DNA of 64,000 bases from Candidatus Improbicoccus devescovinae (GTDB taxonomy: Bacteria; Bacillota; Clostridia; Oscillospirales; Acutalibacteraceae). The notes under the pieces are model-generated. The model was given only the letters and a program-made list of their open reading frames with translations, was not told the origin of the DNA and ran no database searches. Within the stretch, counting starts at the first letter, position 1. The number at the start of each line of letters is the position of its first letter. The stretch spans positions 2,691 to 66,690 of the forward strand of contig BSWA01000002.1 of NCBI GenBank assembly GCA_036245095.1. Direction: 5' to 3'. The position numbers and the translations under genes are program-made. Shown here in pieces: positions 10,941 through 57,128 of the stretch.

Positions 10941-11212
10941 TCATCAAACCATAATTTTGATACAAGCCAGAATCGCAGTAATACTGCGGGTTTTAACGTT
11001 TAGGAGAAAATTTTAAAGTCTGATTTTTTAAATTTTTAAACCCAAAAGCGCATTTGTGCACACACCTCGGAGGAAAAGTTTCATTGTGCACCAGGCTAAC
11101 AAATGCAGTAAATATGCCATTTTTGCGAAAAAATCCATCTCACGGCAACCGTAAAAAAAATTGTGAAAATAGAGCATAATTTAAGTAATAAAACACGGAG
11201 GGGCAAAGTCTC

Positions 11213-11581
11213 ATGAGTGATATCAGTGAAGAAAGATTACAAGAATTAAAAGATTTAGCAAAACTTCTTGCTGTAAATGGTGTTAGAAATAATACGGAAT
11301 TAGAAAATTTACACGCTGGACGAGGACCTTCATCGGTTGTTGGAGATTATTCTGATATTAAGGCACTATCGCCTTATGGAGAAATCGAATGGAATAGGCT
11401 TTCTCGTATTAGCGATAAAGAAATGCGATCACTTATGTTAAGCATAGAGCGTGCACTAGAGAATACACTAATTTCATATGAAAAAGCCGATCAAAAAACG
11501 AAAAAGGACATACTAAAATTTTTCAAAATCCAACGGTCATATGATTATGATATTTCATGTTCATCGTCCACAAAAATATAA
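11213..11581 (+). CDS. hypothetical protein (122 aa), island-borne
   Basis: GGAGGGG RBS. Identical copy at 56488-56856. No motif recognised. Confidence 0.6.
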   Translation: MSDISEERLQELKDLAKLLAVNGVRNNTELENLHAGRGPSSVVGDYSDIKALSPYGEIEWNRLSRISDKEMRSLMLSIERALENTLISYEKADQKTKKDILKFFKIQRSYDYDISCSSSTKI

Positions 11582-11929
11582 CTATTTCATTGATTTTAAG
11601 AGCGGTATAATATTTTGCAAATCTCCGTCCGCCACCATCAATGTTTTTATGTTTTCTGCCGTCAATGTTTCAACAAAATTTATAATTTTTGAAGTTGAAC
11701 GGCTGTAACGGCTTAGATTTTCGGCTATTATCGCGTCTATTTTATAATGTTTAATTAATTCATAAATTTTTTCAAATCCATCTTGTTTTTTACCAATTTC
11801 TTTGATCACATTAACAACTTCAAAACCGCACAGTGCTGCGTAATCCCTTGTGTTTTGTTCTTGAAGATCTAATGCTTTATTGGCATTGTTACTTGTTGCC
11901 ACGCGGCAGTATAAAATTGCTTTTTTCAT
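11582..11929 (-). CDS. small serine-recombinase catalytic-domain protein, probably inactive (catalytic Ser replaced by Ala)
   Basis: MKKAILYCRVATSN aligns with the resolvase YxRVSTxxQ motif with S->A. AENLSRYSRS replaces the conserved DRLxR. No DNA-binding domain. Start taken at the internal ATG just after the stop of the large recombinase. Confidence 0.55.
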   Translation of the reverse strand: MKKAILYCRVATSNNANKALDLQEQNTRDYAALCGFEVVNVIKEIGKKQDGFEKIYELIKHYKIDAIIAENLSRYSRSTSKIINFVETLTAENIKTLMVADGDLQNIIPLLKSMK

Positions 11930-11937
11930 AAATTGCT

Positions 11938-13287
11938 CTAACTGCCGTTGTTGCAGGCATTTTGATTGCTCCTTTCTAAAGATTTTTGTCTTGCTTTTTC
12001 TTTCATTTCTGGCGTCCAAGATTCACTTCGAGACTTGTAACTCCACACTTTTCGCATAATTGTCCCGTTCTGAAAAATAAAATTGAGACTTCCAGCTTTG
12101 GAAATCTCAATCAGATTTATTTCTTTGAATTTTTCCTTAAATTTTTCTTCGTTAAATTCCGATAAATTAAGTATTTCTGCTATTTTTGATTTCAAAATTT
12201 CCTCAGGAACTTGTTTTGAACTGCATTCAAATTTGCCTTTTAGGTTAAACGATGAACAAATCCAAACTGCTTTTTCATATTTTGTTCCGACGCCATTAAT
12301 TTTCCTTCTATAATTTTTACCGCAGATTTCGCATTTTATCTTGCTTGTGAACAGGTATTTTGATTCTGATTTTAGTTTGTTTTTAGGCTTGTAAATTTCA
12401 GCTCTTCTTCTAATTTCATTTTGAACTTTATCAAAAATTTCTCTGTCAATTATTGCTTCATGACTGTTTTTGACCAGATACATTGGCAATTCACCGCTAT
12501 TTTTAATCTTTTTCTTCTCAAGATGATTATTGACGTATGTTTTCTGAAAAAGCATATCGCCGACATATTTTTCATTTCTTAAAATTTTATCAATTGTGCT
12601 TTCGTTCCAAAAATCACTGATTTTCGGCTTTATTTTAAGTTTATTAAGCTTCTTCATAATGGCGTTTTTGCCTAATCCTTCAAGGTAATTTTTAAAAATT
12701 ATTTTTATGATTTTGGCTTCTTTAGTAGTTATTTCTAGTCTGCCGTTTTTTAATTCATATCCATAAATTTTAAAATTGTTCGGTATCCCTGATTTGAATT
12801 TCTTTCTCAGTTTCCATTTGCAATTTTCAGAAACAACTCTTGATTCTTCTTGTGCATAGCTCGCAAGAATTGTAAGCATCAGCTCGCCATCTTCACTCAG
12901 ACTGTGAATTTTTTCCTGTTCAAAATAGACGTCAACACTCAAATTTTTGAGTTCTCTGGTAATTAAGAGCATATCCACCGTGTTTCTCGCAAATCTAGTG
13001 ATTGACTTACAAATAATCATATCGATTTTGCCTTTACGACAGTCTTGAATAAGCTTTTGAAATTCAGGCCTCTCGCCTTTTGTGCCGGTATAGGCTTTAT
13101 CAATGTAAACTCCTGTATATTCCCAATTTTTATGATTTTGGATATAATCGCTGTAATAACTGACTTGCGCTGACAATGAATGGAGCATCGCCTCTTTGCC
13201 GTCAGAAACTCTGGCGTAAGCCACAACACATTTTTTATTCAAAAAGTGACAGTTTTTTGGCTCAATTTTTGTAATATTTTTCTTCAT
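11938..13287 (-). CDS. large serine recombinase (449 aa)
   Basis: YARVSD catalytic motif, SITRFARN, recombinase domain, Cys-rich zinc ribbon (CEICGKNY...WICSS...ECSSK). Confidence 0.85.
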   Translation of the reverse strand: MKKNITKIEPKNCHFLNKKCVVAYARVSDGKEAMLHSLSAQVSYYSDYIQNHKNWEYTGVYIDKAYTGTKGERPEFQKLIQDCRKGKIDMIICKSITRFARNTVDMLLITRELKNLSVDVYFEQEKIHSLSEDGELMLTILASYAQEESRVVSENCKWKLRKKFKSGIPNNFKIYGYELKNGRLEITTKEAKIIKIIFKNYLEGLGKNAIMKKLNKLKIKPKISDFWNESTIDKILRNEKYVGDMLFQKTYVNNHLEKKKIKNSGELPMYLVKNSHEAIIDREIFDKVQNEIRRRAEIYKPKNKLKSESKYLFTSKIKCEICGKNYRRKINGVGTKYEKAVWICSSFNLKGKFECSSKQVPEEILKSKIAEILNLSEFNEEKFKEKFKEINLIEISKAGSLNFIFQNGTIMRKVWSYKSRSESWTPEMKEKARQKSLERSNQNACNNGS

Positions 13288-13335: not shown

Positions 13336-13518
13336 TCAAGGTTTAATGCGGTTTTTCAGGTGATTTAGCTCACCAAAAATTGGTTTGTATTTTTTGATTA
13401 ATTTGTCATTAACTACATCAAAATCTTTTTTGGAAATAACGCTGTTTTTAAGCATAGATTTTATAAGTAAAATTGAAATTTGATAATTTTTTTCGCGTTC
13501 AAATTGTTTATCTGTCAT
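13336..13518 (-). CDS. small conserved hypothetical protein (60 aa) next to the recombinase
   Basis: ORF overlaps the antirepressor stop by 11 nt. Identical second copy. Function unknown. Confidence 0.45.
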   Translation of the reverse strand: MTDKQFEREKNYQISILLIKSMLKNSVISKKDFDVVNDKLIKKYKPIFGELNHLKNRIKP

Positions 13519-14377: not shown

Positions 14378-14785
14378 TTATGGGCTTTTGTAACGAAAAT
14401 TAATGTAACATTGATGACTGCAATAAATTCTTTTGCTATTTTGATAATCTGTAAATTTCTTGCCGCAATGCTTACAAATTACTATATTTTTGGGCTTATT
14501 TGTATAGATATTTCGATTTTTGTTCCAGCAACGATTTTTACAAGTTTTACAGCAAAATTTCTCTGGTTTAGTTTTTTTATCCAGAATCAGCGCTTTGCTG
14601 CAGTTTTTACAAAAATTTTGAGATTTATCATCTTTTATTTTCAAAACTTTAAAATTATTCCGTCTACAAAACGACTTGATTGTGTTTGCTGAAACTCCAG
14701 TAACTCCTGCAATTTTAGTATAGCTTTCACCATCTTCTCGCATTCTCTGAATTTTAAATCTTTGCGTCGTATCCAACAAAATCAC
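14378..14785 (-). CDS. small HTH (sigma-70 region-4-like) plus Cys-rich zinc-ribbon protein
   Basis: ESYTKIAGVTGVSANTIKSFCRRN helix-turn-helix followed by CxxC pairs (CKNC, CKTC, CKHC, CSHQC). GTG start. Confidence 0.6.
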   Translation of the reverse strand: MILLDTTQRFKIQRMREDGESYTKIAGVTGVSANTIKSFCRRNNFKVLKIKDDKSQNFCKNCSKALILDKKTKPEKFCCKTCKNRCWNKNRNIYTNKPKNIVICKHCGKKFTDYQNSKRIYCSHQCYINFRYKSP

Positions 14786-14786
14786 C

Positions 14787-15611
14787 TCAGCTGTTAGGAA
14801 TTTTCAAAACTTGTCCGGGATAAATTTTATCGCCGATAATGCCGTTAAGTTCCGCAATCTTACGCCATCTTGTACCGCTTCCAAGTTTCATCAAGGCAAC
14901 GCCCCATAATGTATCATCTGTGACCACAGTGTAAGTGTGGTAATTCGGTTGGTTTACTGAAATTGACTCGTTTTTTTAAAATCCATTTAGACCATTAGTT
15001 TTCATAATCTGCGGATAATCTTTGTAGCTTTCGTTTAAATCAACATTTCCGCTAATTCCATCGATTTTGCCTTGATCAGACTTCTGCCAAATCCCGCAAT
15101 TTATCGAAGGTTTGGTGGTATTCCACTGAGCGAGCCACAAATCAAATTCATTCAAAAGTTCATCTTTATTGAGATAATTTTGAAGCCAATTTAGGTTCAT
15201 ATAAATCATTGCATAATAGCCTGAATCTTCGATTTTTTCACAGAAAGCCTTACAAATGTTGGTTTTTTGGCGATTTGTGAGCGCCAACATCGTACGATCT
15301 TCAATGTCAAAAATTATTGGGTATTCAAATTGCTTGTTTGCGATATTTTTTAGACAAAATTCAGCCTCCAAAACGGCATCGTTTGCGGAATCTGCATAAG
15401 AATAATGATATGAACCTATGCAAATCCCTGCTGATTTTGCACCTGCGTAGTTTTGTTCGAAAAATTTATCTTTTTGGTTAGGTGATTCTTTTCCCCAGCC
15501 GGACCTGATTATTGCAAACTCCACGCCATTGTTTTTGGACTTTTGCCAATTAATATTGACGTTCCACTTTGAGACATCAATTCCGTTAAATTTCATATTC
15601 TTAACCTCCAA
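14787..15611 (-). pseudogene. GH25 muramidase-LysM endolysin split by an in-frame TAA (GH25 part 14976-15611, LysM part 14787-14975)
   Basis: The GH25 ORF ends ...NGLNGF-TAA. The same frame continues KNESISVNQPNYHTYTVVTDDTLWGVALMKLGSGTRWRKIAELNGIIGDKIYPGQVLKIPNS-TGA, a canonical LysM domain. Confidence 0.7.
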
Positions 15612-15815
15612 TTATGTTCTTTGCAAATTCATACGTGCCTGTTGACCCAAGCAAAATAGGAATTAAATTGAAAATTCCCAAAACTATGCCATTAAATGAA
15701 AAATCGCCCACAATGAAGTGCACCCCTTTGTTAAACTTAGACTTTTGTCTAAATTTTGGGGTGCAGTTCACAAAGGCGATTCTTACGATTGTTACAATAC
15801 TTGAAATTATTAAAT
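15601..15815 (-). pseudogene. holin remnant (3' two-thirds only; 5' end deleted at the IS-A junction)
   Basis: Matches 52254-52468 of the intact holin-like gene in copy 2. Homology stops at 15815, where truncated IS-A begins. Confidence 0.7.
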
Positions 15816-16671
15816 AAATTGGATTTTTATGTCTAAATATGATTTAATAATATCGGTGATGAAAATTGACAAGATATGAAAAAGCTATGAGATTACAAGA
15901 TGCAGATTTTAAGCAATTAATAGGTGTAAAAAAAGAAACTTATAGTGCGATGATTGCTCAGCTTCAAATAGCTTACGCTGAAAAGCACAAACGTCGAGGC
16001 AGGCACACAAAATTAACACTTCAAGATCAATTATTTATGGCTTTGAAGTACTGGCGACAGTATGTGACACAAAAAGAATTGGCATTTGAGTTTGAGGTTG
16101 GCGAAGCAACAACGCACGACACAATCGTTTGGGTCGAAGATACACTGATTAAAAGCAGAAAATTCAGTTTACCCGGCAAAAAAGCATTACTTGAAAATAA
16201 CGAGATAGAAATTGTGGTTGTTGATGTTATGGAAAGTCCGGTCGAACGCCCTAAAAAAAACAGCGTCAGTGGTATTCAGGAAAGAAAAAAAGGCATACCA
16301 TAAAAACGCAACTAATTGTAAATCGACAAACAAAAGATATTATCTGTATTGCCCATGCTGAAGGAAAAACTCACGACTTTAAACTTTATGAGGAAAGTAT
16401 AGGATATGCGATTTCAAATGATAAAAAAGTCCAAGGAGACAGCGGTTATCAGGGAATTTTGAGATTACACAAAAACAGCGAAACTCCAAAGAAAAAACCA
16501 AGAAAAGGCACACTCACTGCCGAAGAAAAATCTGAAAATCGGCGTATTTCAAAAGAACGAATCATAATTGAAAACATAAATGCAAAAATTAAAGTTTTTA
16601 AAATAGTAGCAAACAAATACCGTAATCGACGTACTCGGTTTAAATTAAGAATGTCTTTGTTGTGCGGATTA
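15816..16671 (+). mobile_element. IS-A copy 1: lacks the first roughly 12 nt of its left end, 3' end interrupted by IS-B
   Basis: orfA (15866-16303) is identical to the two other copies. orfB is readable in the -1 frame. Sequence diverges from IS-A at 16672, where the IS-B terminal repeat starts. Confidence 0.8.
16253..16260 (+). promoter_or_regulatory. A8 slippery run: candidate programmed -1 frameshift site joining IS-A orfA and orfB
   Basis: CCT AAA AAA AAC. A -1 slip gives PKKKQRQWYSGKKKRHTIKTQ..., stop-free into the DDE region (GDSGYQG, IIENINAKIK). Same run in all three copies. Confidence 0.5.
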
Positions 16672-17039
16672 GATAGTGTCTACACAAAATTTGACATTCT
16701 TAAATCAATGAAATAAACTTAAAAACTATGAATAATTTACAAAACAGACATGATTTAAAAAACGAACAATGGCTTAAAATAGAACCGATAATCAAGAGAA
16801 CGAATCATAATTGAAAACATAAATGCAAAAATTAAAGTTTTTAAAATAGTAGCAAACAAATACCGTAATCGACGTACTCGGTTTAAATTAAGAATGTCTT
16901 TGTTGTGCGGATTAGATAGTGTCTACACAAAATTTGACATTCTTAAATCAATGAAATAAACTTAAAAACTATGAATAATTTACAAAACAGACATGATTTA
17001 AAAAACGAACAATGGCTTAAAATAGAACCGATAATCAAG
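16554..17039. repeat. 243-bp tandem duplication (2 units) spanning the IS-A/IS-B junction
   Basis: 16554-16796 repeats at 16797-17039. Each unit has the last roughly 118 bp of interrupted IS-A plus the first 125 bp of IS-B. Confidence 0.85.
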
Positions 17040-17503
17040 AAATTAATCGGAACTTGGGGAGGAAGCAACGCAAAAGATAATCAAACTTTTGTGAATGCCT
17101 GTTTTTGGATAACTCGAACAGGTGCACCATGGCGTGATTTGCCACCGCAATATTATTATCACAGAAGGTACCAAAGCTGATTGCAAAATGGCTATCCCTC
17201 TCATTAAAGGGATAAAAGCTGAGAATTTACTTGCCGACAGAGGCTATGATAGCAATGAAATTGTTGAGTTTGCAAAAAAATGTGGTATGAATATAATTAT
17301 CCCACCAAAAAAGAATCGGAAGATTCAACGAGAATATGATAAATACTTGTACAAGTTACGCCATTTGGTTGAAAACGCTTTTTTAAAACTAAAACGACTT
17401 CGTGGTGTAGCCTCGCGTATGCAAAAACGACTTCTTCTTTTCGAGGTGCGGTCACGATTGCTTCAATTTTACAGTGGTTGAGGATTCTTGTGTAGACACT
17501 ATC
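16672..17503 (+). mobile_element. IS-B: IS5-family element (APWRDLP-type N-terminus) with an internal deletion, inserted into IS-A
   Basis: Perfect 16-bp terminal inverted repeats GATAGTGTCTACACAA / TTGTGTAGACACTATC. The ORFs give the N-terminus (..FWITRTGAPWRDLPPQY) and DDE C-terminus (ADRGYDS, LVENAFLKLK), but the middle of the transposase is missing. Confidence 0.75.
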
Positions 17504-17506
17504 TAG

Positions 17507-17853
17507 ATTTGTAAGCGGATGTCTTTTAGTTTTCTTTTTTGGAATTTCTGAATTTTTATGGAATTTATGAATTCCTTGAAATTTTGTATGCATAAGATTC
17601 TGATATTCCGTAGTTTACGTCAATATGAAAATAGGTTCTGTGCTCTCTTAGATATTCTAAAGAGTCATCAAAACCATTTTTTCCATAGATAGCTTATTTT
17701 TTCGGCCTCCTCTAGCTTTGTTTATCTGGTGAGCGACTTCTACGATTTCTATCATTTTTTAAAGGTTTCTTTTTTGACTCCTGCGAGTCTTCTAAATTTT
17801 TTTGTTCCATATTTTATATTATAACTTATTTTTTAAGTTTGGAAAGAAGTCTA
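17507..17853 (-). mobile_element. IS-C fragment (internally deleted, left end retained)
   Basis: Ends ...TAAGTTTGGAAAGAAGTCTA at 17853. Contains KKKTKRHPLT and YGISESYAYKI coding remnants joined by a deletion. Confidence 0.7.
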
Positions 17854-17871
17854 ATATATTTTTACTCAAGT

Positions 17872-21072: not shown

Positions 21073-21073
21073 T

Positions 21074-45700: not shown

Positions 45701-45702
45701 TG

Positions 45703-47840: not shown

Positions 47841-50738
47841 TTATAGCCAGGTTTTCTTGAATTTTATATATATCTTTTTTGAAAGATTCGCGATTGTTAT
47901 ATATAATATTAAGACCGCTAGTAAATACATGTAATACTTTCCTGGTAAGTAGGCCAAATCTAAGCCCGAGGCTATTGGCGTATATATTAATGCGTTGACT
48001 AGAATGCTTATTGCGATAGGGAGTAATATTACTAAAGTCCCCGGTTTGTTGTGCAAAATGGATTTTGTCCGTAAGACGAAAAATACTAATACTTGGCTCC
48101 AGGCGCATTCTATGAGCCATCCAGTTTGAAATACTATTATATATATCATTCGCGCGTTCATATTTTTGAATATGCCTGATTGAATTATAGCATCTACTGG
48201 GATGTTTTTATATACAATGCCTCCAGTACACGCTGGGCAAATTATAAAATATAATATTAAATATGTCAAGCAGTCAAATAAAGAACTAACTGGACCATTC
48301 CAGATCATGAAGCTTTTTATTGAATCACTTTCCCATGTGCGAGGCTTTTTTAAAAAGCTCTTATCAACGTTATCCCACGGAATTACTACTGATGATGTAT
48401 CGTAGGTTAAATTTAATATCATAATATGCAGGCTTGACATTGGTAAAAATGGCAAAAATATACTGCTTATTAATACCGAAAACATATTTCCAAAGTTAGC
48501 GCTCGATGTGATTTTTATATATTTAATCATATTAGCATACGTCTTCCGACCCTCTATAATTCCATTTTCTAAAACCATTAAATTTTTTTCTAATAATATT
48601 ACATCTGCGGCTTCTTTTGCTATATCTACGGCATTGTCTACTGAGATACCAATATCAGCTTTTTTCATAGCAGCTGCATCGTTAATTCCATCACCCATAT
48701 AGCCGACTACTTTGCCGGTTTTTCGCAGAATTTTAATAATTCTAGCCTTCTGCGCTGGATTCAATTTTGCATATATATTTACATGCTTTACATTTTCAGA
48801 TAAAGTCTTATCTGACATGTTTTCTATCTCATTTCCCATGAGGATTTCTAGATTTTTTAAGCCTACTTTTGCACATACACTTTGTGTTACTTTTTCGTTA
48901 TCTCCTGTCAAGATTTTGACGTCTATTCCATAGGAATCCAGCGCCTTCAAAGCGGCTTTACACGTGCTTCTGGGAGGATCCTGGAATGCTAAAAAGCCGA
49001 TTAAAATCATATCAGATTCATCTTTAATAGTATATTTTCCCCCATGAGAATCTTGAATTTCTTTGTATGCAATCGCGATTACACGCATTCCGTTTTTATT
49101 AAGAGAATTAGAAATTTCAGTTGTTTTTTGTTTACGTTCATCGGTAAGAACGCTAGGTTCATCTGTGTTATTTTTTTTAATTTTAGAACAAATACTCATC
49201 ATTTCTTCTGTTGCGCCCTTAGTAATTATAAACTTAAAATTACTAGAATTTTGTTTAATTATTACAGAAATTCTACGTCGTTGGAAATCGAATGGGATTT
49301 TATCGTAGTAACTAAAATCGATCTTAAGATTTTTTAATTCAGCTATTTTTTCTTCATTTTCTTCGTAATAATTTGTAATTGCCACGTCGATAGCATTGCG
49401 AGTGCCGTCTTGAAAATAGCTATTTAAAAACGCATATTTAAGCACATTAGGATCTTTTTCATTCAGGCAATTCACAAATAATTCGAGTATAATTTTATCT
49501 TCCGTAAGAGTACCGGTTTTATCGGTACATAAGACATTCATGGCACCGAAATTTTGTATAGAATTAAGATTTTTAATTATCACCTTCTTTTTAAACATTG
49601 AAACAGAGCCCTTAGAAAGACAAGTAGTCACTATCATTGGAAGCATCTCGGGAGTCAGCCCAATAGCGACCGATAACGAAAACATAAAAGCATTCAACCA
49701 ATCGTGTTTAGTAAAACCGCTCACAAAGAAAACAATAGGAACCATAATTAACATAAAATTAATAAGAATCCATGAGACTTTATTTATTCCTTTTTCGAAA
49801 TTCGAGTCCTCTTTAGGTTTATTCACGCTTTTAGCAATTGAACCCAGCATAGTATTATCACCAACAGCCAACGCAACAGCCGTTGCAGAGCCTGTTATAA
49901 TATTTGCGCCAGTAAACACCAAATTAGGATAATCAGTAATCGAATCATAATTTTTATCCACGATATTGTCATTACGTTCTAACTGATCGCTTTCTCCGGT
50001 CAAAGACGCCTGACTAATAACTAGACTTTTAGATTCAATTAATCTAGCATCCGCAGGAACGATATCTCCCGGATTCAAATAAAACACATCACCAACGGCG
50101 AGTTCATCGATAGGGATATTTTTCACACTTTTTTTGCCTCGTAAAACTTTAACAGTTTTTTCAATCATTTTCATTATTTTTGATACAGCATCACTAGATT
50201 TCGATTCTTGTACAAACTTCATAATTCCCGAAAGAATTACTAAAAACACAATTACAATAGCAGTTGCTGGATTAATCTCATTAAAATCATTATTTAAAAT
50301 CGGAGTAATAATATCGGTAAACACAGATATTAATGCTAAACTAATCAACACTAAAGTAAACGGATTAATAAACGCTTCTATAAACAACACAAACTTAGGT
50401 TTTTTTTCATCTTTACTAATCACATTATTACCATACTGACATTTATTAGCCTCCAATTGTTTCCGAGAGAGGCCTATTCTAGAAGTATTAAAATCCCAAA
50501 GCACAGAATTTATATCATCTTTAGCAGCTTGTTTAAGAATTTTATTATATTTTTCACGGGACTTATCCTGAACAACAGGTTTCACAGGAGTATTATTACT
50601 AAAAAACCTAAAAAATTTAGTAATATAATCATATCGTGGGAGGTCTCTGATATTTTCCTGAGCGCAAATAAAATCTCCAGGTGGAGCTTCTTTAAATATA
50701 GAACTTAAAATTTTAGTTTTTTTAAAATTAAATTTCAT
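47841..50738 (-). CDS. mgtA: magnesium-importing P-type ATPase (MgtA/MgtB type)
   Basis: TGES (SLTGESD), phosphorylation site CTDKTGTLT, MGDGINDAAAMKKADIGISV. About 10 TM helices, 965 aa. Confidence 0.9.
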   Translation of the reverse strand: MKFNFKKTKILSSIFKEAPPGDFICAQENIRDLPRYDYITKFFRFFSNNTPVKPVVQDKSREKYNKILKQAAKDDINSVLWDFNTSRIGLSRKQLEANKCQYGNNVISKDEKKPKFVLFIEAFINPFTLVLISLALISVFTDIITPILNNDFNEINPATAIVIVFLVILSGIMKFVQESKSSDAVSKIMKMIEKTVKVLRGKKSVKNIPIDELAVGDVFYLNPGDIVPADARLIESKSLVISQASLTGESDQLERNDNIVDKNYDSITDYPNLVFTGANIITGSATAVALAVGDNTMLGSIAKSVNKPKEDSNFEKGINKVSWILINFMLIMVPIVFFVSGFTKHDWLNAFMFSLSVAIGLTPEMLPMIVTTCLSKGSVSMFKKKVIIKNLNSIQNFGAMNVLCTDKTGTLTEDKIILELFVNCLNEKDPNVLKYAFLNSYFQDGTRNAIDVAITNYYEENEEKIAELKNLKIDFSYYDKIPFDFQRRRISVIIKQNSSNFKFIITKGATEEMMSICSKIKKNNTDEPSVLTDERKQKTTEISNSLNKNGMRVIAIAYKEIQDSHGGKYTIKDESDMILIGFLAFQDPPRSTCKAALKALDSYGIDVKILTGDNEKVTQSVCAKVGLKNLEILMGNEIENMSDKTLSENVKHVNIYAKLNPAQKARIIKILRKTGKVVGYMGDGINDAAAMKKADIGISVDNAVDIAKEAADVILLEKNLMVLENGIIEGRKTYANMIKYIKITSSANFGNMFSVLISSIFLPFLPMSSLHIMILNLTYDTSSVVIPWDNVDKSFLKKPRTWESDSIKSFMIWNGPVSSLFDCLTYLILYFIICPACTGGIVYKNIPVDAIIQSGIFKNMNARMIYIIVFQTGWLIECAWSQVLVFFVLRTKSILHNKPGTLVILLPIAISILVNALIYTPIASGLDLAYLPGKYYMYLLAVLILYITIANLSKKIYIKFKKTWL

Positions 50739-50954
50739 CTTATTATGCCTCCTATTTGATTCATGAATTTTGATTTATAAATTTTTATTTATGAATATTG
50801 AATAAAAAAAATACAATGCTTGTGAAATTATAGTTCAATATTCCAATTAAGACAATATTTAAATTCATAAAAAACATTTATCAAAACATGTACAGGTATT
50901 TTTTTAAATAAAAGATCTATAAGATATATTTACAAAAAGAAAAAATTGTTTTTG

Positions 50955-51040
50955 CATATACAAAAATGACTTCTTCTTTTCGAGATGCATTTACGATTGC
51001 TTCAAGTTTATAATAATTGAGAAGTATTGTAGACACTATC
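50955..51040 (+). mobile_element. IS-B right-end remnant
   Basis: ..AAAAATGACTTCTTCTTTTCGAG...TATTGTAGACACTATC resembles 17420-17503. Confidence 0.6.
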
Positions 51041-51149
51041 TAGACTTCTGCCAGTGAATTTTTTGCCAAAAAATACACAAAAAATATTTTTAAAATTTTC
51101 TATAAAAAACACTAAAAATCCGCTTGACATCTATAATACAATCGATATA

Positions 51150-51197
51150 TAATAAATCTCTTCGGAAATTGGATTTTTATGTCTAAATATGATTTAA
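51150..51197 (+). mobile_element. solo IS-A left end (48 bp) abutting IS-A copy 2
   Basis: CTCTTCGGAAATTGGATTTTTATGTCTAAATATGATTTAAT equals the first roughly 45 nt of IS-A. Confidence 0.65.
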
Positions 51198-52099
51198 TAG
51201 ACCTCCTCGGAAATTAATTTTCAAAATTAATTAATCCGCACAACAAAGACATTCTTAATTTAAACCGAGTACGTCGATTACGGTATTTGTTTGCTACTAT
51301 TTTAAAAACTTTAATTTTTGCATTTATGTTTTCAATTATGATTCGTTCTTTTGAAATACGCCGATTTTCAGATTTTTCTTCGGCAGTGAGTGTGCTTTTT
51401 CTTGGTTTTTCTTTGGAGTTTCGCTGTTTTTGTGTAATCTCAAAATTCCCTGATAACCGCTGTCTCCTTGGACTTTTTTATCATTTGAAATCGCATATCC
51501 TATACTTTCCTCATAAAGTTTAAAGTCGTGAGTTTTTCCTTCAGCATGGGCAATACAGATAATATCTTTTGTTTGTCGATTTACAATTAGTTGCGTGTTT
51601 ATGGTATGCCTTTTTTTCTTTCCTGAATACCACTGACGCTGTTTTTTTTAGGGCGTTCGACCGGACTTTCCATAACATCAACAACCACAATTTCTATCTC
51701 GTTATTTTCAAGTAATGCTTTTTTGCCGGGTAAACTGAATTTTCTGCTTTTAATCAGTGTATCTTCGACCCAAACGATTGTGTCGTGCGTTGTTGCTTCG
51801 CCAACCTCAAACTCAAATGCCAATTCTTTTTGTGTCACATACTGTCGCCAGTACTTCAAAGCCATAAATAATTGATCTTGAAGTGTTAATTTTGTGTGCC
51901 TGCCTCGACGTTTGTGCTTTTCAGCGTAAGCTATTTGAAGCTGAGCAATCATCGCACTGTAAGTTTCTTTTTTTACACCTATTAATTGCTTAAAATCTGC
52001 ATCTTGTAATCTCATAGCTTTTTCATATCTTGTCAATTTTCATCACCGATATTATTAAATCATATTTAGACATAAAAATCCAATTTCCGAAGAGGTCTA
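51198..52099 (-). mobile_element. IS-A copy 2 (902 bp); orfA intact, orfB frameshifted
   Basis: Both terminal repeats are present (TAGACCTCCTCGGAAATT ... AATTTCCGAAGAGGTCTA). orfA is 51599-52036. Relative to copy 3 it has a one-base shorter homopolymer (T5 vs T6 on the plus strand, about 51406-51410) plus one substitution. Confidence 0.85.
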
Positions 52100-52120
52100 T
52101 TATTTTTCGAAGGAATCAAA

Positions 52121-52468
52121 ATGAGCGAAAATTTTAATCTTAATCAATTTTTAACCGAAGAAATGTTCTTGAGTTTGGCGAGTTGTATATTGATCGTTAC
52201 TGGTGGTGTTAAATTTTTCAAGAATTATACAAATTTAAGTCCGCTTTGGCTGAATTTAATAATTTCAAGTATTGTAACAATCGTAAGAATCGCCTTTGTG
52301 AACTGCACCCCAAAATTTAGACAAAAGTCTAAGTTTAACAAAGGGGTGCACTTCATTGTGGGCGATTTTTCATTTAATGGCATAGTTTTGGGAATTTTCA
52401 ATTTAATTCCTATTTTGCTTGGGTCAACAGGCACGTATGAATTTGCAAAGAACATAATTGGAGGTTAA
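52121..52468 (+). CDS. holin-like small membrane protein (intact only in this copy)
   Basis: 115 aa with three hydrophobic segments. It overlaps the start of the lysin gene by 11 nt, a typical lysis-cassette layout. Confidence 0.55.
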   Translation: MSENFNLNQFLTEEMFLSLASCILIVTGGVKFFKNYTNLSPLWLNLIISSIVTIVRIAFVNCTPKFRQKSKFNKGVHFIVGDFSFNGIVLGIFNLIPILLGSTGTYEFAKNIIGG

Positions 52469-53282
52469 GAATATGAAATTTAACGGAATTGATGTCTCAA
52501 AGTGGAACGTCAATATTAATTGGCAAAAGTCCAAAAACAATGGCGTGGAGTTTGCAATAATCAGGTCCGGCTGGGGAAAAGAATCACCTAACCAAAAAGA
52601 TAAATTTTTCGAACAAAACTACGCAGGTGCAAAATCAGCAGGGATTTGCATAGGTTCATATCATTATTCTTATGCAGATTCCGCAAACGATGCCGTTTTG
52701 GAGGCTGAATTTTGTCTAAAAAATATCGCAAACAAGCAATTTGAATACCCAATAATTTTTGACATTGAAGATCGTACGATGTTGGCGCTCACAAATCGCC
52801 AAAAAACCAACATTTGTAAGGCTTTCTGTGAAAAAATCGAAGATTCAGGCTATTATGCAATGATTTATATGAACCTAAATTGGCTTCAAAATTATCTCAA
52901 TAAAGATGAACTTTTGAATGAATTTGATTTGTGGCTCGCTCAGTGGAATACCACCAAACCTTCGATAAATTGCGGGATTTGGCAGAAGTCTGATCAAGGC
53001 AAAATCGATGGAATTAGCGGAAATGTTGATTTAAACGAAAGCTACAAAGATTATCCGCAGATTATGAAAACTAATGGTCTAAATGGATTTTAAAAAAACG
53101 AGTCAATTTCAGTAAACCAACCGAATTACCACACTTACACTGTGGTCACAGATGATACATTATGGGGCGTTGCCTTGATGAAACTTGGAAGCGGTACAAG
53201 ATGGCGTAAGATTGCGGAACTTAACGGCATTATCGGCGATAAAATTTATCCCGGACAAGTTTTGAAAATTCCTAACAGCTGA
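52458..53282 (+). pseudogene. GH25 muramidase-LysM endolysin split by an in-frame TAA (53091-53093)
   Basis: Identical to 14787-15611. 63 further in-frame codons encode the LysM domain. Confidence 0.7.
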
Positions 53283-53283
53283 G

Positions 53284-53691
53284 GTGATTTTGTTGGATAC
53301 GACGCAAAGATTTAAAATTCAGAGAATGCGAGAAGATGGTGAAAGCTATACTAAAATTGCAGGAGTTACTGGAGTTTCAGCAAACACAATCAAGTCGTTT
53401 TGTAGACGGAATAATTTTAAAGTTTTGAAAATAAAAGATGATAAATCTCAAAATTTTTGTAAAAACTGCAGCAAAGCGCTGATTCTGGATAAAAAAACTA
53501 AACCAGAGAAATTTTGCTGTAAAACTTGTAAAAATCGTTGCTGGAACAAAAATCGAAATATCTATACAAATAAGCCCAAAAATATAGTAATTTGTAAGCA
53601 TTGCGGCAAGAAATTTACAGATTATCAAAATAGCAAAAGAATTTATTGCAGTCATCAATGTTACATTAATTTTCGTTACAAAAGCCCATAA
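53284..53691 (+). CDS. small HTH plus zinc-ribbon protein (copy 2)
   Basis: Identical translation to 14378-14785. Confidence 0.6.
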   Translation: MILLDTTQRFKIQRMREDGESYTKIAGVTGVSANTIKSFCRRNNFKVLKIKDDKSQNFCKNCSKALILDKKTKPEKFCCKTCKNRCWNKNRNIYTNKPKNIVICKHCGKKFTDYQNSKRIYCSHQCYINFRYKSP

Positions 53692-53767
53692 ATATTATTA
53701 CTTGGAGCCGTAAAACGGCTCCTTTTTCATGCTTAATTTTAAATTAAATTTTGGAGGATTTTTTAAT

Positions 53768-54561
53768 ATGAATGAACTTACAATTTTTAAAAATGAGGAA
53801 TTTGGCGAAATTAGAACAATTTTAATTGAGGGTAATCCTCACCTCATTTTGTTAGCATTGATGTCGCAAAAAATTTAGATTATGCCAACCCAAGTAAAGC
53901 AGTTCACGACCACTGCAAAGGTATTTCCAAGTTGGGAATACCTTCGGTTGGAGGAATTCAAGAAACGAACGTAATCTCTGAAGGCGATGTTTATCGTCTG
54001 ATAATCAAAGCAGCTGACCAGAACAAAAATTCTGAAATAAAATTAAAAGCAGAAAAATTTGAACGTTGGGTTTTCGATGAAGTCTTGCCATCCATCCGCA
54101 AACACGGAATGTATGCCACAAAAGAACTACTAAATAATCCTGATTTGCTCATCGAAATGGCACAGGCTTTAAAAATTGAGCGTGCTGAAAAAGAATATCT
54201 GCAAATTCAGTCTAAAAAAGATAAGCCGAAAGTAATTTTTGCAGATGCTGTCTCAGTTTCCGATGGCACAATTTTAATTGGCGAACTCGCAAAAATTCTG
54301 AAAGGTAACGGTATCGAAATCGGACAAAATCGTTTATTCGAAAAGCTTCGTCAAGACGGATATCTCATAAAACGTAACGGTACTGATTACAATATGCCGA
54401 CACAAAAATCGATGGAACTGGAACTTTTCAAAATAAAAGAAACCGCAATTACTCATTCTGACGGGCACATCACTGTAAATAAAACCACTAAAGTTACAGG
54501 TAAAGGTCAGCAATATTTTGTAAATTACTTTCTTGGCGTGGTGCGGCTAAATGACAGATAA
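53768..54561 (+). pseudogene. phage antirepressor (BRO-N + KilAC) with the 5-bp CCTCA duplication frameshift at 53837-53846
   Basis: Identical to copy 1. Removing one CCTCA restores ...IEGNPHFVSIDVAKNLDYANPSKAVHDH... Confidence 0.75.
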
Positions 54562-54733
54562 ACAATTTGAACGCGAAAAAAATTATCAAATTTCAATTTT
54601 ACTTATAAAATCTATGCTTAAAAACAGCGTTATTTCCAAAAAAGATTTTGATGTAGTTAATGACAAATTAATCAAAAAATACAAACCAATTTTTGGTGAG
54701 CTAAATCACCTGAAAAACCGCATTAAACCTTGA
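54551..54733 (+). CDS. small hypothetical protein (copy 2)
   Basis: Identical translation to 13336-13518. Confidence 0.45.
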   Translation: MTDKQFEREKNYQISILLIKSMLKNSVISKKDFDVVNDKLIKKYKPIFGELNHLKNRIKP

Positions 54734-54781
54734 CTAATAGCCTTAATATATGGATATATATGAATGGAGGATTAAAAAATT

Positions 54782-56131
54782 ATGAAGAAAAATATTACAA
54801 AAATTGAGCCAAAAAACTGTCACTTTTTGAATAAAAAATGTGTTGTGGCTTACGCCAGAGTTTCTGACGGCAAAGAGGCGATGCTCCATTCATTGTCAGC
54901 GCAAGTCAGTTATTACAGCGATTATATCCAAAATCATAAAAATTGGGAATATACAGGAGTTTACATTGATAAAGCCTATACCGGCACAAAAGGCGAGAGG
55001 CCTGAATTTCAAAAGCTTATTCAAGACTGTCGTAAAGGCAAAATCGATATGATTATTTGTAAGTCAATCACTAGATTTGCGAGAAACACGGTGGATATGC
55101 TCTTAATTACCAGAGAACTCAAAAATTTGAGTGTTGACGTCTATTTTGAACAGGAAAAAATTCACAGTCTGAGTGAAGATGGCGAGCTGATGCTTACAAT
55201 TCTTGCGAGCTATGCACAAGAAGAATCAAGAGTTGTTTCTGAAAATTGCAAATGGAAACTGAGAAAGAAATTCAAATCAGGGATACCGAACAATTTTAAA
55301 ATTTATGGATATGAATTAAAAAACGGCAGACTAGAAATAACTACTAAAGAAGCCAAAATCATAAAAATAATTTTTAAAAATTACCTTGAAGGATTAGGCA
55401 AAAACGCCATTATGAAGAAGCTTAATAAACTTAAAATAAAGCCGAAAATCAGTGATTTTTGGAACGAAAGCACAATTGATAAAATTTTAAGAAATGAAAA
55501 ATATGTCGGCGATATGCTTTTTCAGAAAACATACGTCAATAATCATCTTGAGAAGAAAAAGATTAAAAATAGCGGTGAATTGCCAATGTATCTGGTCAAA
55601 AACAGTCATGAAGCAATAATTGACAGAGAAATTTTTGATAAAGTTCAAAATGAAATTAGAAGAAGAGCTGAAATTTACAAGCCTAAAAACAAACTAAAAT
55701 CAGAATCAAAATACCTGTTCACAAGCAAGATAAAATGCGAAATCTGCGGTAAAAATTATAGAAGGAAAATTAATGGCGTCGGAACAAAATATGAAAAAGC
55801 AGTTTGGATTTGTTCATCGTTTAACCTAAAAGGCAAATTTGAATGCAGTTCAAAACAAGTTCCTGAGGAAATTTTGAAATCAAAAATAGCAGAAATACTT
55901 AATTTATCGGAATTTAACGAAGAAAAATTTAAGGAAAAATTCAAAGAAATAAATCTGATTGAGATTTCCAAAGCTGGAAGTCTCAATTTTATTTTTCAGA
56001 ACGGGACAATTATGCGAAAAGTGTGGAGTTACAAGTCTCGAAGTGAATCTTGGACGCCAGAAATGAAAGAAAAAGCAAGACAAAAATCTTTAGAAAGGAG
56101 CAATCAAAATGCCTGCAACAACGGCAGTTAG
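54782..56131 (+). CDS. large serine recombinase (copy 2)
   Basis: Identical translation to 11938-13287. Confidence 0.85.
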   Translation: MKKNITKIEPKNCHFLNKKCVVAYARVSDGKEAMLHSLSAQVSYYSDYIQNHKNWEYTGVYIDKAYTGTKGERPEFQKLIQDCRKGKIDMIICKSITRFARNTVDMLLITRELKNLSVDVYFEQEKIHSLSEDGELMLTILASYAQEESRVVSENCKWKLRKKFKSGIPNNFKIYGYELKNGRLEITTKEAKIIKIIFKNYLEGLGKNAIMKKLNKLKIKPKISDFWNESTIDKILRNEKYVGDMLFQKTYVNNHLEKKKIKNSGELPMYLVKNSHEAIIDREIFDKVQNEIRRRAEIYKPKNKLKSESKYLFTSKIKCEICGKNYRRKINGVGTKYEKAVWICSSFNLKGKFECSSKQVPEEILKSKIAEILNLSEFNEEKFKEKFKEINLIEISKAGSLNFIFQNGTIMRKVWSYKSRSESWTPEMKEKARQKSLERSNQNACNNGS

Positions 56132-56139
56132 AGCAATTT

Positions 56140-56487
56140 ATGAAAAAAGCAATTTTATACTGCCGCGTGGCAACAAGTAACAATGCCAATAAAGCATTAG
56201 ATCTTCAAGAACAAAACACAAGGGATTACGCAGCACTGTGCGGTTTTGAAGTTGTTAATGTGATCAAAGAAATTGGTAAAAAACAAGATGGATTTGAAAA
56301 AATTTATGAATTAATTAAACATTATAAAATAGACGCGATAATAGCCGAAAATCTAAGCCGTTACAGCCGTTCAACTTCAAAAATTATAAATTTTGTTGAA
56401 ACATTGACGGCAGAAAACATAAAAACATTGATGGTGGCGGACGGAGATTTGCAAAATATTATACCGCTCTTAAAATCAATGAAATAG
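56140..56487 (+). CDS. small degenerate serine-recombinase catalytic-domain protein (copy 2)
   Basis: Identical to 11582-11929. Confidence 0.55.
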   Translation: MKKAILYCRVATSNNANKALDLQEQNTRDYAALCGFEVVNVIKEIGKKQDGFEKIYELIKHYKIDAIIAENLSRYSRSTSKIINFVETLTAENIKTLMVADGDLQNIIPLLKSMK

Positions 56488-56856
56488 TTATATTTTTGTG
56501 GACGATGAACATGAAATATCATAATCATATGACCGTTGGATTTTGAAAAATTTTAGTATGTCCTTTTTCGTTTTTTGATCGGCTTTTTCATATGAAATTA
56601 GTGTATTCTCTAGTGCACGCTCTATGCTTAACATAAGTGATCGCATTTCTTTATCGCTAATACGAGAAAGCCTATTCCATTCGATTTCTCCATAAGGCGA
56701 TAGTGCCTTAATATCAGAATAATCTCCAACAACCGATGAAGGTCCTCGTCCAGCGTGTAAATTTTCTAATTCCGTATTATTTCTAACACCATTTACAGCA
56801 AGAAGTTTTGCTAAATCTTTTAATTCTTGTAATCTTTCTTCACTGATATCACTCAT
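56488..56856 (-). CDS. hypothetical protein (122 aa, copy 2)
   Basis: Identical translation to 11213-11581. Confidence 0.6.
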   Translation of the reverse strand: MSDISEERLQELKDLAKLLAVNGVRNNTELENLHAGRGPSSVVGDYSDIKALSPYGEIEWNRLSRISDKEMRSLMLSIERALENTLISYEKADQKTKKDILKFFKIQRSYDYDISCSSSTKI

Positions 56857-57128
56857 GAGACTTTGCCCCTCCGTGTTTTATTACTTAAATTATGCTCTAT
56901 TTTCACAATTTTTTTTACGGTTGCCGTGAGATGGATTTTTTCGCAAAAATGGCATATTTACTGCATTTGTTAGCCTGGTGCACAATGAAACTTTTCCTCC
57001 GAGGTGTGTGCACAAATGCGCTTTTGGGTTTAAAAATTTAAAAAATCAGACTTTAAAATTTTCTCCTAAACGTTAAAACCCGCAGTATTACTGCGATTCT
57101 GGCTTGTATCAAAATTATGGTTTGATGA

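What the first reader, a model, noticed from the sequence alone, without database searches (positions are those of the whole stretch)
10941..57128. Kilobase-scale inverted repeats with no differences seen, each encoding a serine recombinase, bracket 36.4 kb of core genes
Every ORF translation between 11213 and 15817 recurs identically, in reverse order and on the opposite strand, between 52225 and 56856. Paired coordinates sum to 68069, and spot-checked DNA is identical (13261-13320 against 54749-54808). The arms are 10941-15815 and 52254-57128 (4,875 bp). After a 167-bp segment present only on the right, the repeat continues into IS-A (15816-16671 against 51198-52099). The enclosed 36.4 kb carries topA, gatCAB, spoIVB, pyrD and mgtA. 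Established knowledge: identical inverted repeats of this size are efficient substrates for RecA-mediated inversion. Serine recombinases include dedicated invertases. The segment may therefore exist in two orientations, or one arm could be an assembly artefact.
Basis: partly seen in the sequence, partly recalled or inferred. Interest (0 to 1): 0.7.

Follow-up and report, generated by a model that had tools for sequence, protein, structure and literature searches.

The report
Twin prophage stubs at tRNA genes
The two identical 4.9-kb inverted repeats are leftover ends of the same temperate phage, each inserted exactly after the CCA end of a different tRNA gene; this is ordinary decay of mobile DNA in a symbiont genome, not an inversion switch, though the phage's serine integrases appear to target tRNA ends, which is unusual.

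Summary
Positions 10937-15815 and 52254-57132 are reverse complements with 0 mismatches in 4,879 bp. The repeat continues into an IS copy after a 167-bp indel.

The window matches the endosymbiont Candidatus Improbicoccus devescovinae, through a 100% GatB hit.

Each arm starts immediately after the CCA of a tRNA gene: tRNA-Arg(ACG) on + and tRNA-Leu(CAA) on -. Each carries holin, GH25 lysin, an HTH protein, an antirepressor, SHOCT, an intact 449-aa large serine recombinase (LSR1) and a dead 145-aa vestige of a second one.

Relatives show the same module (HTH-SHOCT-LSR1-LSR2) at the right end of siphovirus prophages. In 29 of 87 informative loci it abuts the 3' CCA of a tRNA or tmRNA gene. A conserved GATAC motif sits at the same distance from the CCA.

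So the arms are prophage right-end remnants at two attachment sites. They are inverted because the two tRNA genes face each other. The phage bodies are gone and an IS sits at the break.

The recombinase is a phage integrase, not an invertase. Homologous recombination could still flip the 36.4 kb, but nothing here tests that. Interest is modest. tRNA-end targeting by tandem serine integrases may be under-described.

The parts
10863..10940 (+). tRNA-Arg(ACG); its 3' CCA is the left outer boundary (the attB-derived half of an attL-type junction)
   Evidence: ARAGORN; Rfam tRNA 66.4 bits; identity between the arms begins at the ACCA
10941..10963 (+). Phage-side half-site (P') of the left junction: TCATCAAACCATAAT followed by TTTGATAC at 10956-10963, 15 nt after the CCA
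   Evidence: Same 15-nt spacing and same motif in a related phage family (CCA|TACCTGCACCCTTAT-TTTGATAC) and in L004/L015; a GATAC core at the same distance in L097/L100
10941..15815 (-). Left arm: remnant of the right end of a siphovirus-type prophage
   Evidence: 0 mismatches to 52254-57128; gene content; same gene order as prophage L015
11213..11581 (+). 122-aa ORF with no family match, lying where relatives carry the 3' two-thirds of LSR2
   Evidence: No Pfam or PHROG hit; relatives have a 527-aa LSR2 at this position
11582..12019 (-). Vestige of the second large serine recombinase (LSR2): catalytic domain only, YCRVA instead of YARVS
   Evidence: Pfam Resolvase 2.6e-12 and nothing else; weak match to the LSR2 N-terminus; alignment shows Ser to Ala and truncation
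11938..13287 (-). LSR1: intact 449-aa large serine recombinase (phage integrase type)
   Evidence: Resolvase 5e-32, Recombinase 7e-23, Zn_ribbon_recom 3e-9; PHROG 95 integrase 2e-112; full length and YARVS motif against 434-aa orthologues
13336..13518 (-). SHOCT_2 small protein, a conserved neighbour of LSR1
   Evidence: Pfam PF20612 2e-18; the same domain directly upstream of LSR1 in L015
13508..14137 (-). Phage antirepressor (KilAC domain plus a partial Bro-N domain)
   Evidence: Pfam ANT 8e-36; PHROG 130 1e-65; the only part of the arm with DNA similarity to known phages
14378..14785 (-). 135-aa HTH / Cys-rich protein, conserved upstream partner of the LSR pair
   Evidence: Weak Pfam HTH hits, below the curated cut-offs; PHROG 2308 1e-33; homologues directly upstream of LSR1 in L001-L015
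14976..15611 (-). GH25 endolysin
   Evidence: Pfam Glyco_hydro_25 4.5e-34; PHROG endolysin 8e-55
15601..15815 (-). 3' part of a holin-like gene, cut off at the left arm/IS junction
   Evidence: The full 115-aa ORF exists only in the right copy (52121-52468); it overlaps the lysin start. The holin assignment is inferred from position and hydrophobic segments; there is no family hit
15816..16671 (+). IS-A copy 1 (transposase with HTH_Tnp_4 and DDE_Tnp_4 domains, frameshifted). It lacks the first 13 nt and the last ~34 nt of the IS, is joined to a second IS, and is followed by a 243-bp tandem duplication to 17040
15816..52253 (.). Enclosed 36.4-kb segment: IS debris, topA, an Rpn-family nuclease, gatC-like, gatA, spoIVB, a Ras-like GTPase, gatB, large ORFs without family match, tRNA-Ser(GGA), pyrD, mgtA
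51198..52099 (-). IS-A copy 2, complete (902 bp; terminal inverted repeats TAGACCTC(T/C)TCGGAAATT)
52087..52253 (.). 167 bp present only on the right: 13 nt of the IS-A terminus (52087-52099) plus 154 nt of phage DNA, including the 5' end of the holin gene
   Evidence: The simplest reading is a 167-bp deletion across the arm/IS junction in the left copy
52254..57128 (+). Right arm: mirror copy. Holin 52121-52468, lysin 52458-53093, HTH 53284-53691, antirepressor 53932-54561, SHOCT 54551-54733, LSR1 54782-56131, LSR2 vestige 56050-56487, 122-aa ORF 56488-56856 (-)
57129..57214 (-). tRNA-Leu(CAA); its 3' CCA is the right outer boundary
   Evidence: ARAGORN; Rfam; junction sequence
57389..58291 (-). 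IS-A copy 3, in direct orientation with copy 2. Together they bracket the right arm and tRNA-Leu

Best explanation
The two arms are identical remnants of the right-hand end of one temperate siphovirus-type phage.

How the phage integrates (inferred). Its integration module is an HTH protein, a SHOCT protein and two tandem large serine recombinases, LSR1 and LSR2. It integrates by site-specific recombination at the terminal CA of the CCA 3' end of tRNA and tmRNA genes.

What is shown. Each arm begins exactly after the CCA of a tRNA gene, tRNA-Arg(ACG) on + and tRNA-Leu(CAA) on -. Each arm carries the phage-side half-site with the family's conserved TTTGATAC motif 15 nt from the CCA. The gene order holin-lysin-HTH-(antirepressor)-SHOCT-LSR1-LSR2'-tRNA matches intact relatives.

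What follows by inference.
- The phage lysogenised two tRNA sites. Because the two tRNA genes point towards each other, the prophage ends form an inverted repeat around the 36.4 kb of chromosome between them.
- Everything upstream of the holin gene (structural, replication and lysogeny genes, and the distal attachment site) was later lost. An IS-A copy sits at the break in both copies. A further 167-bp deletion in the left copy spans the phage/IS junction.
- The perfect identity, including the shared dead LSR2 and the shared IS position, reflects one of two histories. Either an already IS-carrying phage lysogenised both sites very recently, or, more likely, gene conversion occurred between the two inverted copies.
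- The element is now probably immobile: LSR2 is a Ser-to-Ala stub and no distal att site is found.
- The arms remain 4.9-kb (5.7-kb with the IS) substrates for homologous recombination. That would invert the enclosed segment without breaking any gene. It would be a passive structural polymorphism, not a regulated switch.
For: Repeat: 0 mismatches in 4,879 bp.

Boundaries: at tRNA-Arg 10863-10940 and tRNA-Leu 57129-57214.

Arm genes: Pfam and PHROG assignments.

Conserved module: orthologous HTH-SHOCT-LSR1-LSR2 in all close relatives. In L015 it follows siphovirus tail genes, a holin and an endolysin, and ends at tRNA-Glu.

Enrichment at tRNA ends: a minus-strand tRNA or tmRNA gene has its 3' end 1.8-2.5 kb downstream of the end of the LSR1 match in 15 of 54 genome/viral loci, and within 3 kb (1.1-2.5 kb) in 14 of 33 metagenome loci. 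Together these positions hold 30 of the 37 tRNA/tmRNA genes found in 1.5 Mb of loci.

Shared post-CCA sequence across different targets: L004 (tmRNA) and L015 (tRNA-Glu); L028, L029 and L035 (three tRNA-Leu genes); and the window (Arg, Leu).

Crossover position: one phage-side arm is joined to five different left partners, all ending in CA.

IS-A: its termini and the 13-nt truncation at 15816 show that one 167-bp deletion links the left and right junctions.

Context: the window's GatB is 100% identical to that of Ca. Improbicoccus devescovinae, and the genome paper reports 154 pseudogenes, mostly mobilome.
Against: - No intact copy of this phage, no attP and no empty tRNA site were found. The exact half-site is absent from the metagenome and viral collections, and the best LSR1 relative is only 58% identical.
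- No distal attachment site was recognisable in the window.
- About two thirds of related loci show no tRNA at that position, so tRNA targeting is not universal in the clade.
- Two independent integrations do not by themselves explain the shared IS-A position and shared dead LSR2. That needs gene conversion or an already defective phage helped in trans, and neither is shown.
- IS-A copies 1 and 2 differ at 4 of 856 positions while the arms differ at 0 of 4,879. This is odd if arm and IS were duplicated together. Conversion, cross-talk with other IS copies, or polishing artefacts could each explain it.
- The presence of recA in this genome was not checked; only 64 kb was available.
Confidence: 0.8

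Rival explanations
1. The 36.4-kb segment really flips. Homologous recombination between the identical arms keeps both orientations present in the symbiont population. This is compatible with the best explanation; it is an additional claim about dynamics.
For: 4.9 kb of perfect inverted homology plus 0.86 kb of 99.5% identical IS. Perfect identity next to slightly diverged IS copies would fit ongoing recombination or conversion between the arms. Inversions between inverted prophages or IS copies are well known from other bacteria (own knowledge).
Against: There is no direct evidence; a single assembly gives one orientation. Third-position GC skew and gene-strand bias are uninformative. The sister genome shows no synteny around gatB, and the topA search did not retrieve the sister genome. 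Whether recA is present is unknown.
Confidence: 0.35
2. This is a programmed inversion switch: the arm-encoded serine recombinase acts as an invertase on sites inside the arms and flips the segment to regulate genes.
For: A serine recombinase gene lies in each arm. PHROG also gives weaker 'DNA invertase' family hits for the catalytic domain. The two tRNA-CCA|P' junctions are in inverted orientation, so a recombinase acting on them would invert rather than delete.
Against: The architecture is that of a large serine integrase, not a ~190-aa Hin/Gin-type invertase. Orthologues sit at prophage ends next to att junctions. Large serine integrases normally recombine attP with attB, or attL with attR when a directionality factor is present; they do not recombine two attL-type sites (established knowledge). 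The partner LSR2 is dead. Flipping would change no promoter-gene junction, because the arms are identical.
Confidence: 0.04
3. Assembly or sample artefact. One arm, or the pairing of outer and inner junctions, is wrong. Alternatively, the element sits at tRNA-Arg in some cells and at tRNA-Leu in others, and the assembler merged the two states.
For: The genome came from phi29-amplified DNA of a single host cell's symbionts, sequenced with MiSeq and early MinION 1D2 reads, assembled with SPAdes/Flye into 4 contigs (PMC10579323). Amplification chimeras are often inverted (own knowledge). Phasing across 4.9 kb of perfect identity depends entirely on long reads. Polishing can homogenise repeat copies.
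Against: All four junctions are different and each makes biological sense: two precise att-type junctions at two different tRNA genes, and two inner junctions differing by a 167-bp indel. Random chimeras would not reproduce a precise tRNA-CCA|P' junction twice.
Confidence: 0.1
4. The arm was copied as cargo of an IS-A composite transposon, not by phage integration.
For: On the right, IS-A copies 2 and 3 are direct repeats bracketing the arm and tRNA-Leu. IS-A also adjoins the left arm.
Against: The left copy's outer boundary is the CCA of tRNA-Arg, not an IS end, and tRNA-Leu was not copied. Both outer junctions carry the family-specific half-site at the conserved spacing. The three IS-A copies differ from one another.
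Confidence: 0.04

Closest known systems
Temperate Firmicutes phages integrated by large serine recombinases (phiC31, Bxb1, A118, TP901-1, SPbeta)
   Same: LSR with Resolvase, Recombinase and zinc-ribbon domains. The integrase gene lies next to the att junction at a prophage end. The half-sites are short, with an inferred 2-bp crossover and no long direct repeats.
   Different: Two tandem LSR genes instead of one. The target is the extreme 3' CCA of tRNA/tmRNA genes rather than a site inside a protein-coding gene, and near-identical integrases use different tRNA genes. The window holds only a truncated remnant with one dead recombinase.
SCCmec CcrA/CcrB and the Dehalococcoides ssrA genomic islands (DsiB/DsiA serine recombinases integrating at the tmRNA gene; PMC3146451)
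   Same: A pair of co-oriented serine recombinase genes. The ssrA islands integrate at the 3' end of tmRNA, which is also the commonest target among the relatives found here.
   Different: DsiA is a small ~200-aa recombinase, whereas both partners here are large (434 and 527 aa in relatives). The carriers are siphovirus prophages, not islands. Many tRNA species are used, and no direct repeat at the far end of the element could be looked for.
tRNA-targeting genomic islands and prophages with tyrosine integrases (Islander class; PMC4383910)
   Same: They sit at the 3' end of a tRNA or tmRNA gene and leave the gene intact.
   Different: The integrase family is serine, not tyrosine. The crossover is at the very last nucleotides (the CA of CCA) rather than inside the anticodon or T-loop region. 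No displaced tRNA fragment is seen. [quoted passage not shown]
Chromosomal inversions between inverted prophages, IS copies or rrn operons by homologous recombination (e.g. Streptococcus pyogenes, E. coli O157; own knowledge)
   Same: Kilobase-scale identical inverted repeats of mobile-element origin bracket tens of kilobases of chromosome.
   Different: No second orientation has been observed here, and the repeats are only 4.9-kb stubs.
Hin/Gin/Cin/Pin DNA invertases
   Same: A serine-recombinase catalytic domain.
   Different: Those are ~190-aa enzymes with a C-terminal HTH. They act on ~26-bp inverted sites and need an enhancer and Fis. None of that is present here; this protein has 449 aa and integrase architecture.

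Membership tests
Large serine recombinase (phage/ICE integrase type) | N-terminal resolvase catalytic domain with the catalytic serine | tested here: met
   PF00239 5e-32; the YARVS motif aligns with orthologues
Large serine recombinase (phage/ICE integrase type) | Recombinase domain plus zinc beta-ribbon domain C-terminal to the catalytic domain | tested here: met
   PF07508 7e-23 and PF13408 3e-9
Large serine recombinase (phage/ICE integrase type) | Short att sites with a 2-bp crossover; the element junction lies next to the gene | tested here: inconclusive
   An attL-type junction lies 1 kb from the gene. The CA core is inferred from five junction variants of a related phage. Neither attP nor attR of this element was found
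Large serine recombinase (phage/ICE integrase type) | Catalyses attP x attB recombination | not testable with these tools
   Needs a recombination assay
Tandem-LSR integration module (HTH-SHOCT-LSR1-LSR2) seen in the relatives | Both LSR genes intact | tested here: not met
   LSR2 is a 145-aa catalytic-domain stub with Ser replaced by Ala
Tandem-LSR integration module (HTH-SHOCT-LSR1-LSR2) seen in the relatives | Conserved HTH/Cys-rich and SHOCT_2 genes upstream of LSR1 | tested here: met
   here an antirepressor gene is inserted between them
Tandem-LSR integration module (HTH-SHOCT-LSR1-LSR2) seen in the relatives | Module ends at the 3' CCA of a tRNA/tmRNA gene, with a GATAC-containing half-site 15-20 nt from the CCA | tested here: met
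   Both arms; relatives
Dedicated serine DNA invertase (Hin/Gin/Cin/Pin) | Small (~190 aa) protein: catalytic domain plus C-terminal HTH | tested here: not met
   449 aa with Recombinase and zinc-ribbon domains
Dedicated serine DNA invertase (Hin/Gin/Cin/Pin) | Short (~26 bp) inverted recombination sites bounding the invertible segment, plus an enhancer | tested here: not met
   The boundaries are 4.9-kb repeats ending at tRNA genes. No short site pair or enhancer was identified
Intact prophage | Structural, packaging and replication genes, and both attL and attR | tested here: not met
   Only the lysis cassette, antirepressor and integration module remain. An IS-A sits at the break, and no distal att site was found
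tRNA-targeting island of the Islander type | Tyrosine integrase and a displaced tRNA 3' fragment at the far end | tested here: not met
   The integrase is a serine recombinase. The only large repeat families in the window are the arms, the IS-A copies and MITE-like elements, and none is a copy of the tRNA-Arg or tRNA-Leu 3' end
IS (DDE_Tnp_4 / HTH_Tnp_4 transposase, IS5-like) for IS-A | Terminal inverted repeats and a DDE transposase | tested here: met
   18-bp terminal inverted repeats TAGACCTC(T/C)TCGGAAATT. HTH_Tnp_4 1e-12 and DDE_Tnp_4 1e-8, split over two ORFs. Target-site duplication not settled

The most novel reading that the evidence does not exclude
The arms belong to a widespread but apparently undescribed class of temperate phages of Bacillota and Mollicutes-like hosts. 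A pair of tandem large serine recombinases integrates the phage at the terminal CA of the CCA 3' end of tRNA and tmRNA genes. One and the same integrase system can use different tRNA species: Arg-ACG and Leu-CAA for identical elements in this window, and tmRNA versus tRNA-Glu for 93-96% identical integrases in L004 and L015. That would be a serine-integrase counterpart of the classical tyrosine-integrase tRNA targeting. The two different subunits might read the two unlike half-sites.
Probability: 0.35. Interest if true: 0.65.

Novelty: new member of a known kind. Interest (0 to 1): 0.4.

Why it matters
For the genome itself. The repeat is a marker of ongoing erosion of mobile DNA in a recently host-restricted endosymbiont. 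It is also a likely hotspot for inversion and for assembly ambiguity. The orientation of these 36 kb in the published draft should be treated as provisional.

More generally. The comparison shows that a clade of tandem large serine integrases places prophages exactly at the CCA end of tRNA and tmRNA genes. A 2014 reference work stated that this target class was not known for serine integrases (PMC4383910). The largest LSR survey, which classified targets by protein-coding genes only, does not mention it (PMC10083194).

If confirmed experimentally, such integrases would offer naturally conserved landing sites that do not disrupt genes in many bacteria. They would also offer a test case for how heteromeric serine recombinases read asymmetric sites.

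Tried and rejected
1. Exact-protein look-ups of the window's LSR1 and GatB found nothing on record. The organism was identified instead through a homology search.

2. Ancestral orientation of the 36 kb.
- The sister genome (Ca. I. pseudotrichonymphae, L045) shows no synteny around gatB.
- A TopA homology search returned only ~60% identical free-living relatives, not the sister genome.
- No comparison was therefore possible.

3. GC skew, third-position GC skew and gene-strand bias are too noisy in 64 kb to show a recent inversion.

4. DNA similarity of the arm to known phages reaches only the antirepressor gene, at ~65%.

5. Searches for the distal half-site (an inverted GTATCAAA motif) in the window gave chance-level hits.

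6. The exact phage-side half-site has no match in the metagenome or viral collections.

7. Rfam and promoter/terminator scans found nothing beyond the tRNA genes in the 272-bp non-coding stretch next to each tRNA.

8. Composite-transposon copying by IS-A was rejected. The left outer boundary is a tRNA CCA, not an IS end.

9. I first took the dyad-symmetric junction in L052/L053 for a clean attP. A second, convergent LSR pair on its other side makes that uncertain, so it is used only as one of five junction variants that all end in CA.

10. Literature searches found no explicit report of large serine integrases targeting tRNA CCA ends. The library is incomplete, so absence is weak evidence.

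Full report
**1. Observation**

The inverted repeat is real.
- The repeat finder lists arms 10915-15815 and 52254-57154.
- Gapped BLAST of the window against itself gives 10937-15815 against 57132-52254, 100% over 4,879 bp.
- A direct comparison gives 0 mismatches.
- Past the inner ends the homology continues into an insertion sequence. Positions 15816-16671 match 52086-51232 with 4 differences, and match a third copy at 58278-57423 with 2 differences.
- 167 bp (52087-52253) exist only on the right.
- The enclosed genes topA, gatA, spoIVB, gatB, pyrD and mgtA pass NCBIfam cut-offs. A gatC-like ORF precedes gatA.

**2. Source**

The window's GatB is 100% identical to that of the MAG Candidatus Improbicoccus devescovinae. 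This organism is a clostridial endosymbiont of a termite-gut flagellate.

Its draft genome has 4 contigs and 1.08 Mb. It came from phi29-amplified DNA sequenced with MiSeq and MinION. It has 154 pseudogenes, mainly mobilome and recombination or repair genes (PMC10579323).

**3. Anatomy of an arm**

ARAGORN and Rfam place tRNA-Arg(ACG) at 10863-10940 (+) and tRNA-Leu(CAA) at 57129-57214 (-). Each arm therefore starts at the first base after a CCA end.

Reading away from the tRNA, each arm holds:
- 272 bp of non-coding DNA;
- a 122-aa ORF with no family match;
- a 145-aa ORF with only a resolvase catalytic domain;
- a 449-aa large serine recombinase with Resolvase, Recombinase and zinc-ribbon domains;
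- a SHOCT_2 protein;
- a KilAC antirepressor;
- a 135-aa HTH/Cys-rich protein;
- a GH25 endolysin;
- an overlapping holin-like gene.

The holin-like gene is complete only in the right copy.

**4. The insertion sequence**

IS-A has the termini TAGACCTCTTCGGAAATT...AATTTCCGAGGAGGTCTA. Copy 2 is 51198-52099 and copy 3 is 57389-58291.

The left copy starts 13 nt inside the IS, at 15816. The right-only 167 bp therefore consist of 13 nt of IS terminus plus 154 nt of phage DNA.

One 167-bp deletion across a pre-existing phage/IS junction explains the left copy. So the unit shared by the two sides included IS-A.

**5. Relatives**

LSR1 has no close relative; the best is 58% identical. All relatives above about 45% identity carry the same module: an HTH protein homologous to the 135-aa ORF, SHOCT_2, LSR1 (~434 aa) and a second LSR of ~527 aa.

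In L015 this module follows siphovirus tail genes, a holin and an endolysin. That is the gene order of the arm.

The window's 145-aa ORF aligns weakly with the N-terminus of LSR2. It has YCRVA where the active enzymes have YARVS, and it lacks the DNA-binding domains. LSR1 is full length with the catalytic serine.

**6. Attachment at tRNA ends**

Among the genome and viral loci, 54 have enough downstream sequence. Of these, 15 have a tRNA or tmRNA gene on the opposite strand with its 3' end 1.8-2.5 kb past the end of the LSR1 match. Among the metagenome loci the figure is 14 of 33, with the 3' end within 3 kb. Some contigs recur between collections.

These positions hold 30 of the 37 tRNA/tmRNA genes found in about 1.5 Mb of loci.

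The targets include tmRNA and tRNA-Leu (four anticodons), Glu, Pro, Arg, Ala and Ser.

The sequence right after the CCA is shared between different targets:
- L004 (tmRNA) and L015 (tRNA-Glu), whose integrases are 93-96% identical;
- three different tRNA-Leu genes in Acholeplasma-like genomes;
- the two tRNA genes of the window.

In the group closest to the window, a TTTGATAC or GATAC motif begins 15-18 nt after the CCA. In the window it lies at 10956-10963.

In one phage family the same phage-side arm is joined to five different left partners. All five end in CA and diverge upstream of it. This places the crossover at the CA of CCA.

The outer ends of both arms are therefore attL-type junctions.

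tRNA-Ser(GGA) at 45703-45793 has a native CCA and is unoccupied.

**7. Interpretation**

The arms are right-end stubs of the same phage at two tRNA attachment sites. The inverted orientation follows from the two tRNA genes facing each other.

The phage bodies and distal att sites are gone.

The shared IS position and the shared dead LSR2 call for one of two histories: gene conversion between the copies, or lysogeny by an already defective phage. Zero differences in 4,879 bp, next to 4 differences in 856 bp of IS, favour homogenisation. IS cross-talk or polishing could also produce this pattern.

The recombinase is an integrase, not an invertase. Inversion of the 36.4 kb by homologous recombination remains possible and untested.

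A wholly artefactual arm is unlikely, because all four junctions differ and each is coherent. The phase across the arms, however, rests on long reads that I cannot see.

**8. Literature**

- The Islander paper states that serine integrases are not known to target tRNA genes.
- A 2017 review says that serine-recombinase elements integrate within genes.
- The largest LSR survey classifies targets by protein-coding genes and never mentions tRNA or tmRNA.
- The Dehalococcoides ssrA islands, with a serine recombinase pair at tmRNA, are the nearest precedent.

**9. Verdict**

The finding as stated is an ordinary product of prophage and IS decay in a symbiont genome. The by-product, tandem serine integrases that target tRNA CCA ends, deserves follow-up.

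Noticed in passing
window 10594-10812; related copies at 20905-21075, 63617-63784, 2243-2379 (inverted), 353-512: A ~210-bp MITE-like element with terminal inverted repeats (GACTTCTTTCCAAACTAAACAAT...) and a remnant of a transposase C-terminus. One copy sits between dacB and the tRNA-Arg promoter.
   Followed up: partly
window 16549-17040: A perfect 243-bp tandem duplication spanning the junction between the truncated 3' end of IS-A copy 1 and the 5' end of a second IS (ORF MNNLQNRHDLKNEQW...). The left inner flank is a pile-up of IS fragments.
   Followed up: partly
window 51158-51199: A solo ~42-bp fragment of the IS-A 5' end lies in inverted orientation, abutting the 3' terminus of IS-A copy 2. 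It is possibly a scar of the event that removed the right prophage body.
   Followed up: no
window 10564-10593 and 57240-57269: An identical 30-bp AT-rich stretch (TTTTCTTGAAATTTAAAATTTAAATAAATA) lies upstream of both occupied tRNA genes. It looks like a promoter next to tRNA-Leu and overlaps the dacB stop codon on the left. Its significance is unknown.
   Followed up: no
window 29190-29966 (-): A 258-aa protein with an N-terminal hydrophobic segment and a Ras/Arf/Roc-type small GTPase domain (Pfam Ras 9e-10). It fits the eukaryote-like regulatory proteins reported for this symbiont clade.
   Followed up: no
window 35403-36182 (+) and 36259-40395 (+): A 259-aa ORF has a borderline match to the contractile-injection-system tube protein (26.9 bits against a cut-off of 27). 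It is followed by a 1,378-aa low-complexity ORF with no family match.
   Followed up: no
window 59871-60343: In-frame tandem repeats with 12-, 48- and 108-nt periodicities lie in a locally GC-rich (44%) part of a 697-aa ORF with no family match.
   Followed up: no
L052 4540-7690 and L053: A dyad-symmetric site, GTATCAAA-N15-CA-N15-TTTGATAC, is flanked by two convergent LSR1-LSR2 pairs. It could be an attP with recombinase pairs on both sides, or two elements joined end to end. It remains unexplained.
   Followed up: partly
L049, L066, L067 (junction at L066 ~13100-13150): The phage-side arm is joined to only the last ~10 nt of tmRNA (GCCTCCACCA). The late genes of another phage lie beyond it. 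This probably marks a tmRNA 3' fragment displaced by a second prophage at the same locus.
   Followed up: partly
window 21074-22036 (-): An Rpn-family recombination-promoting nuclease / putative transposase lies inside the enclosed segment, next to MITE copies.
   Followed up: no
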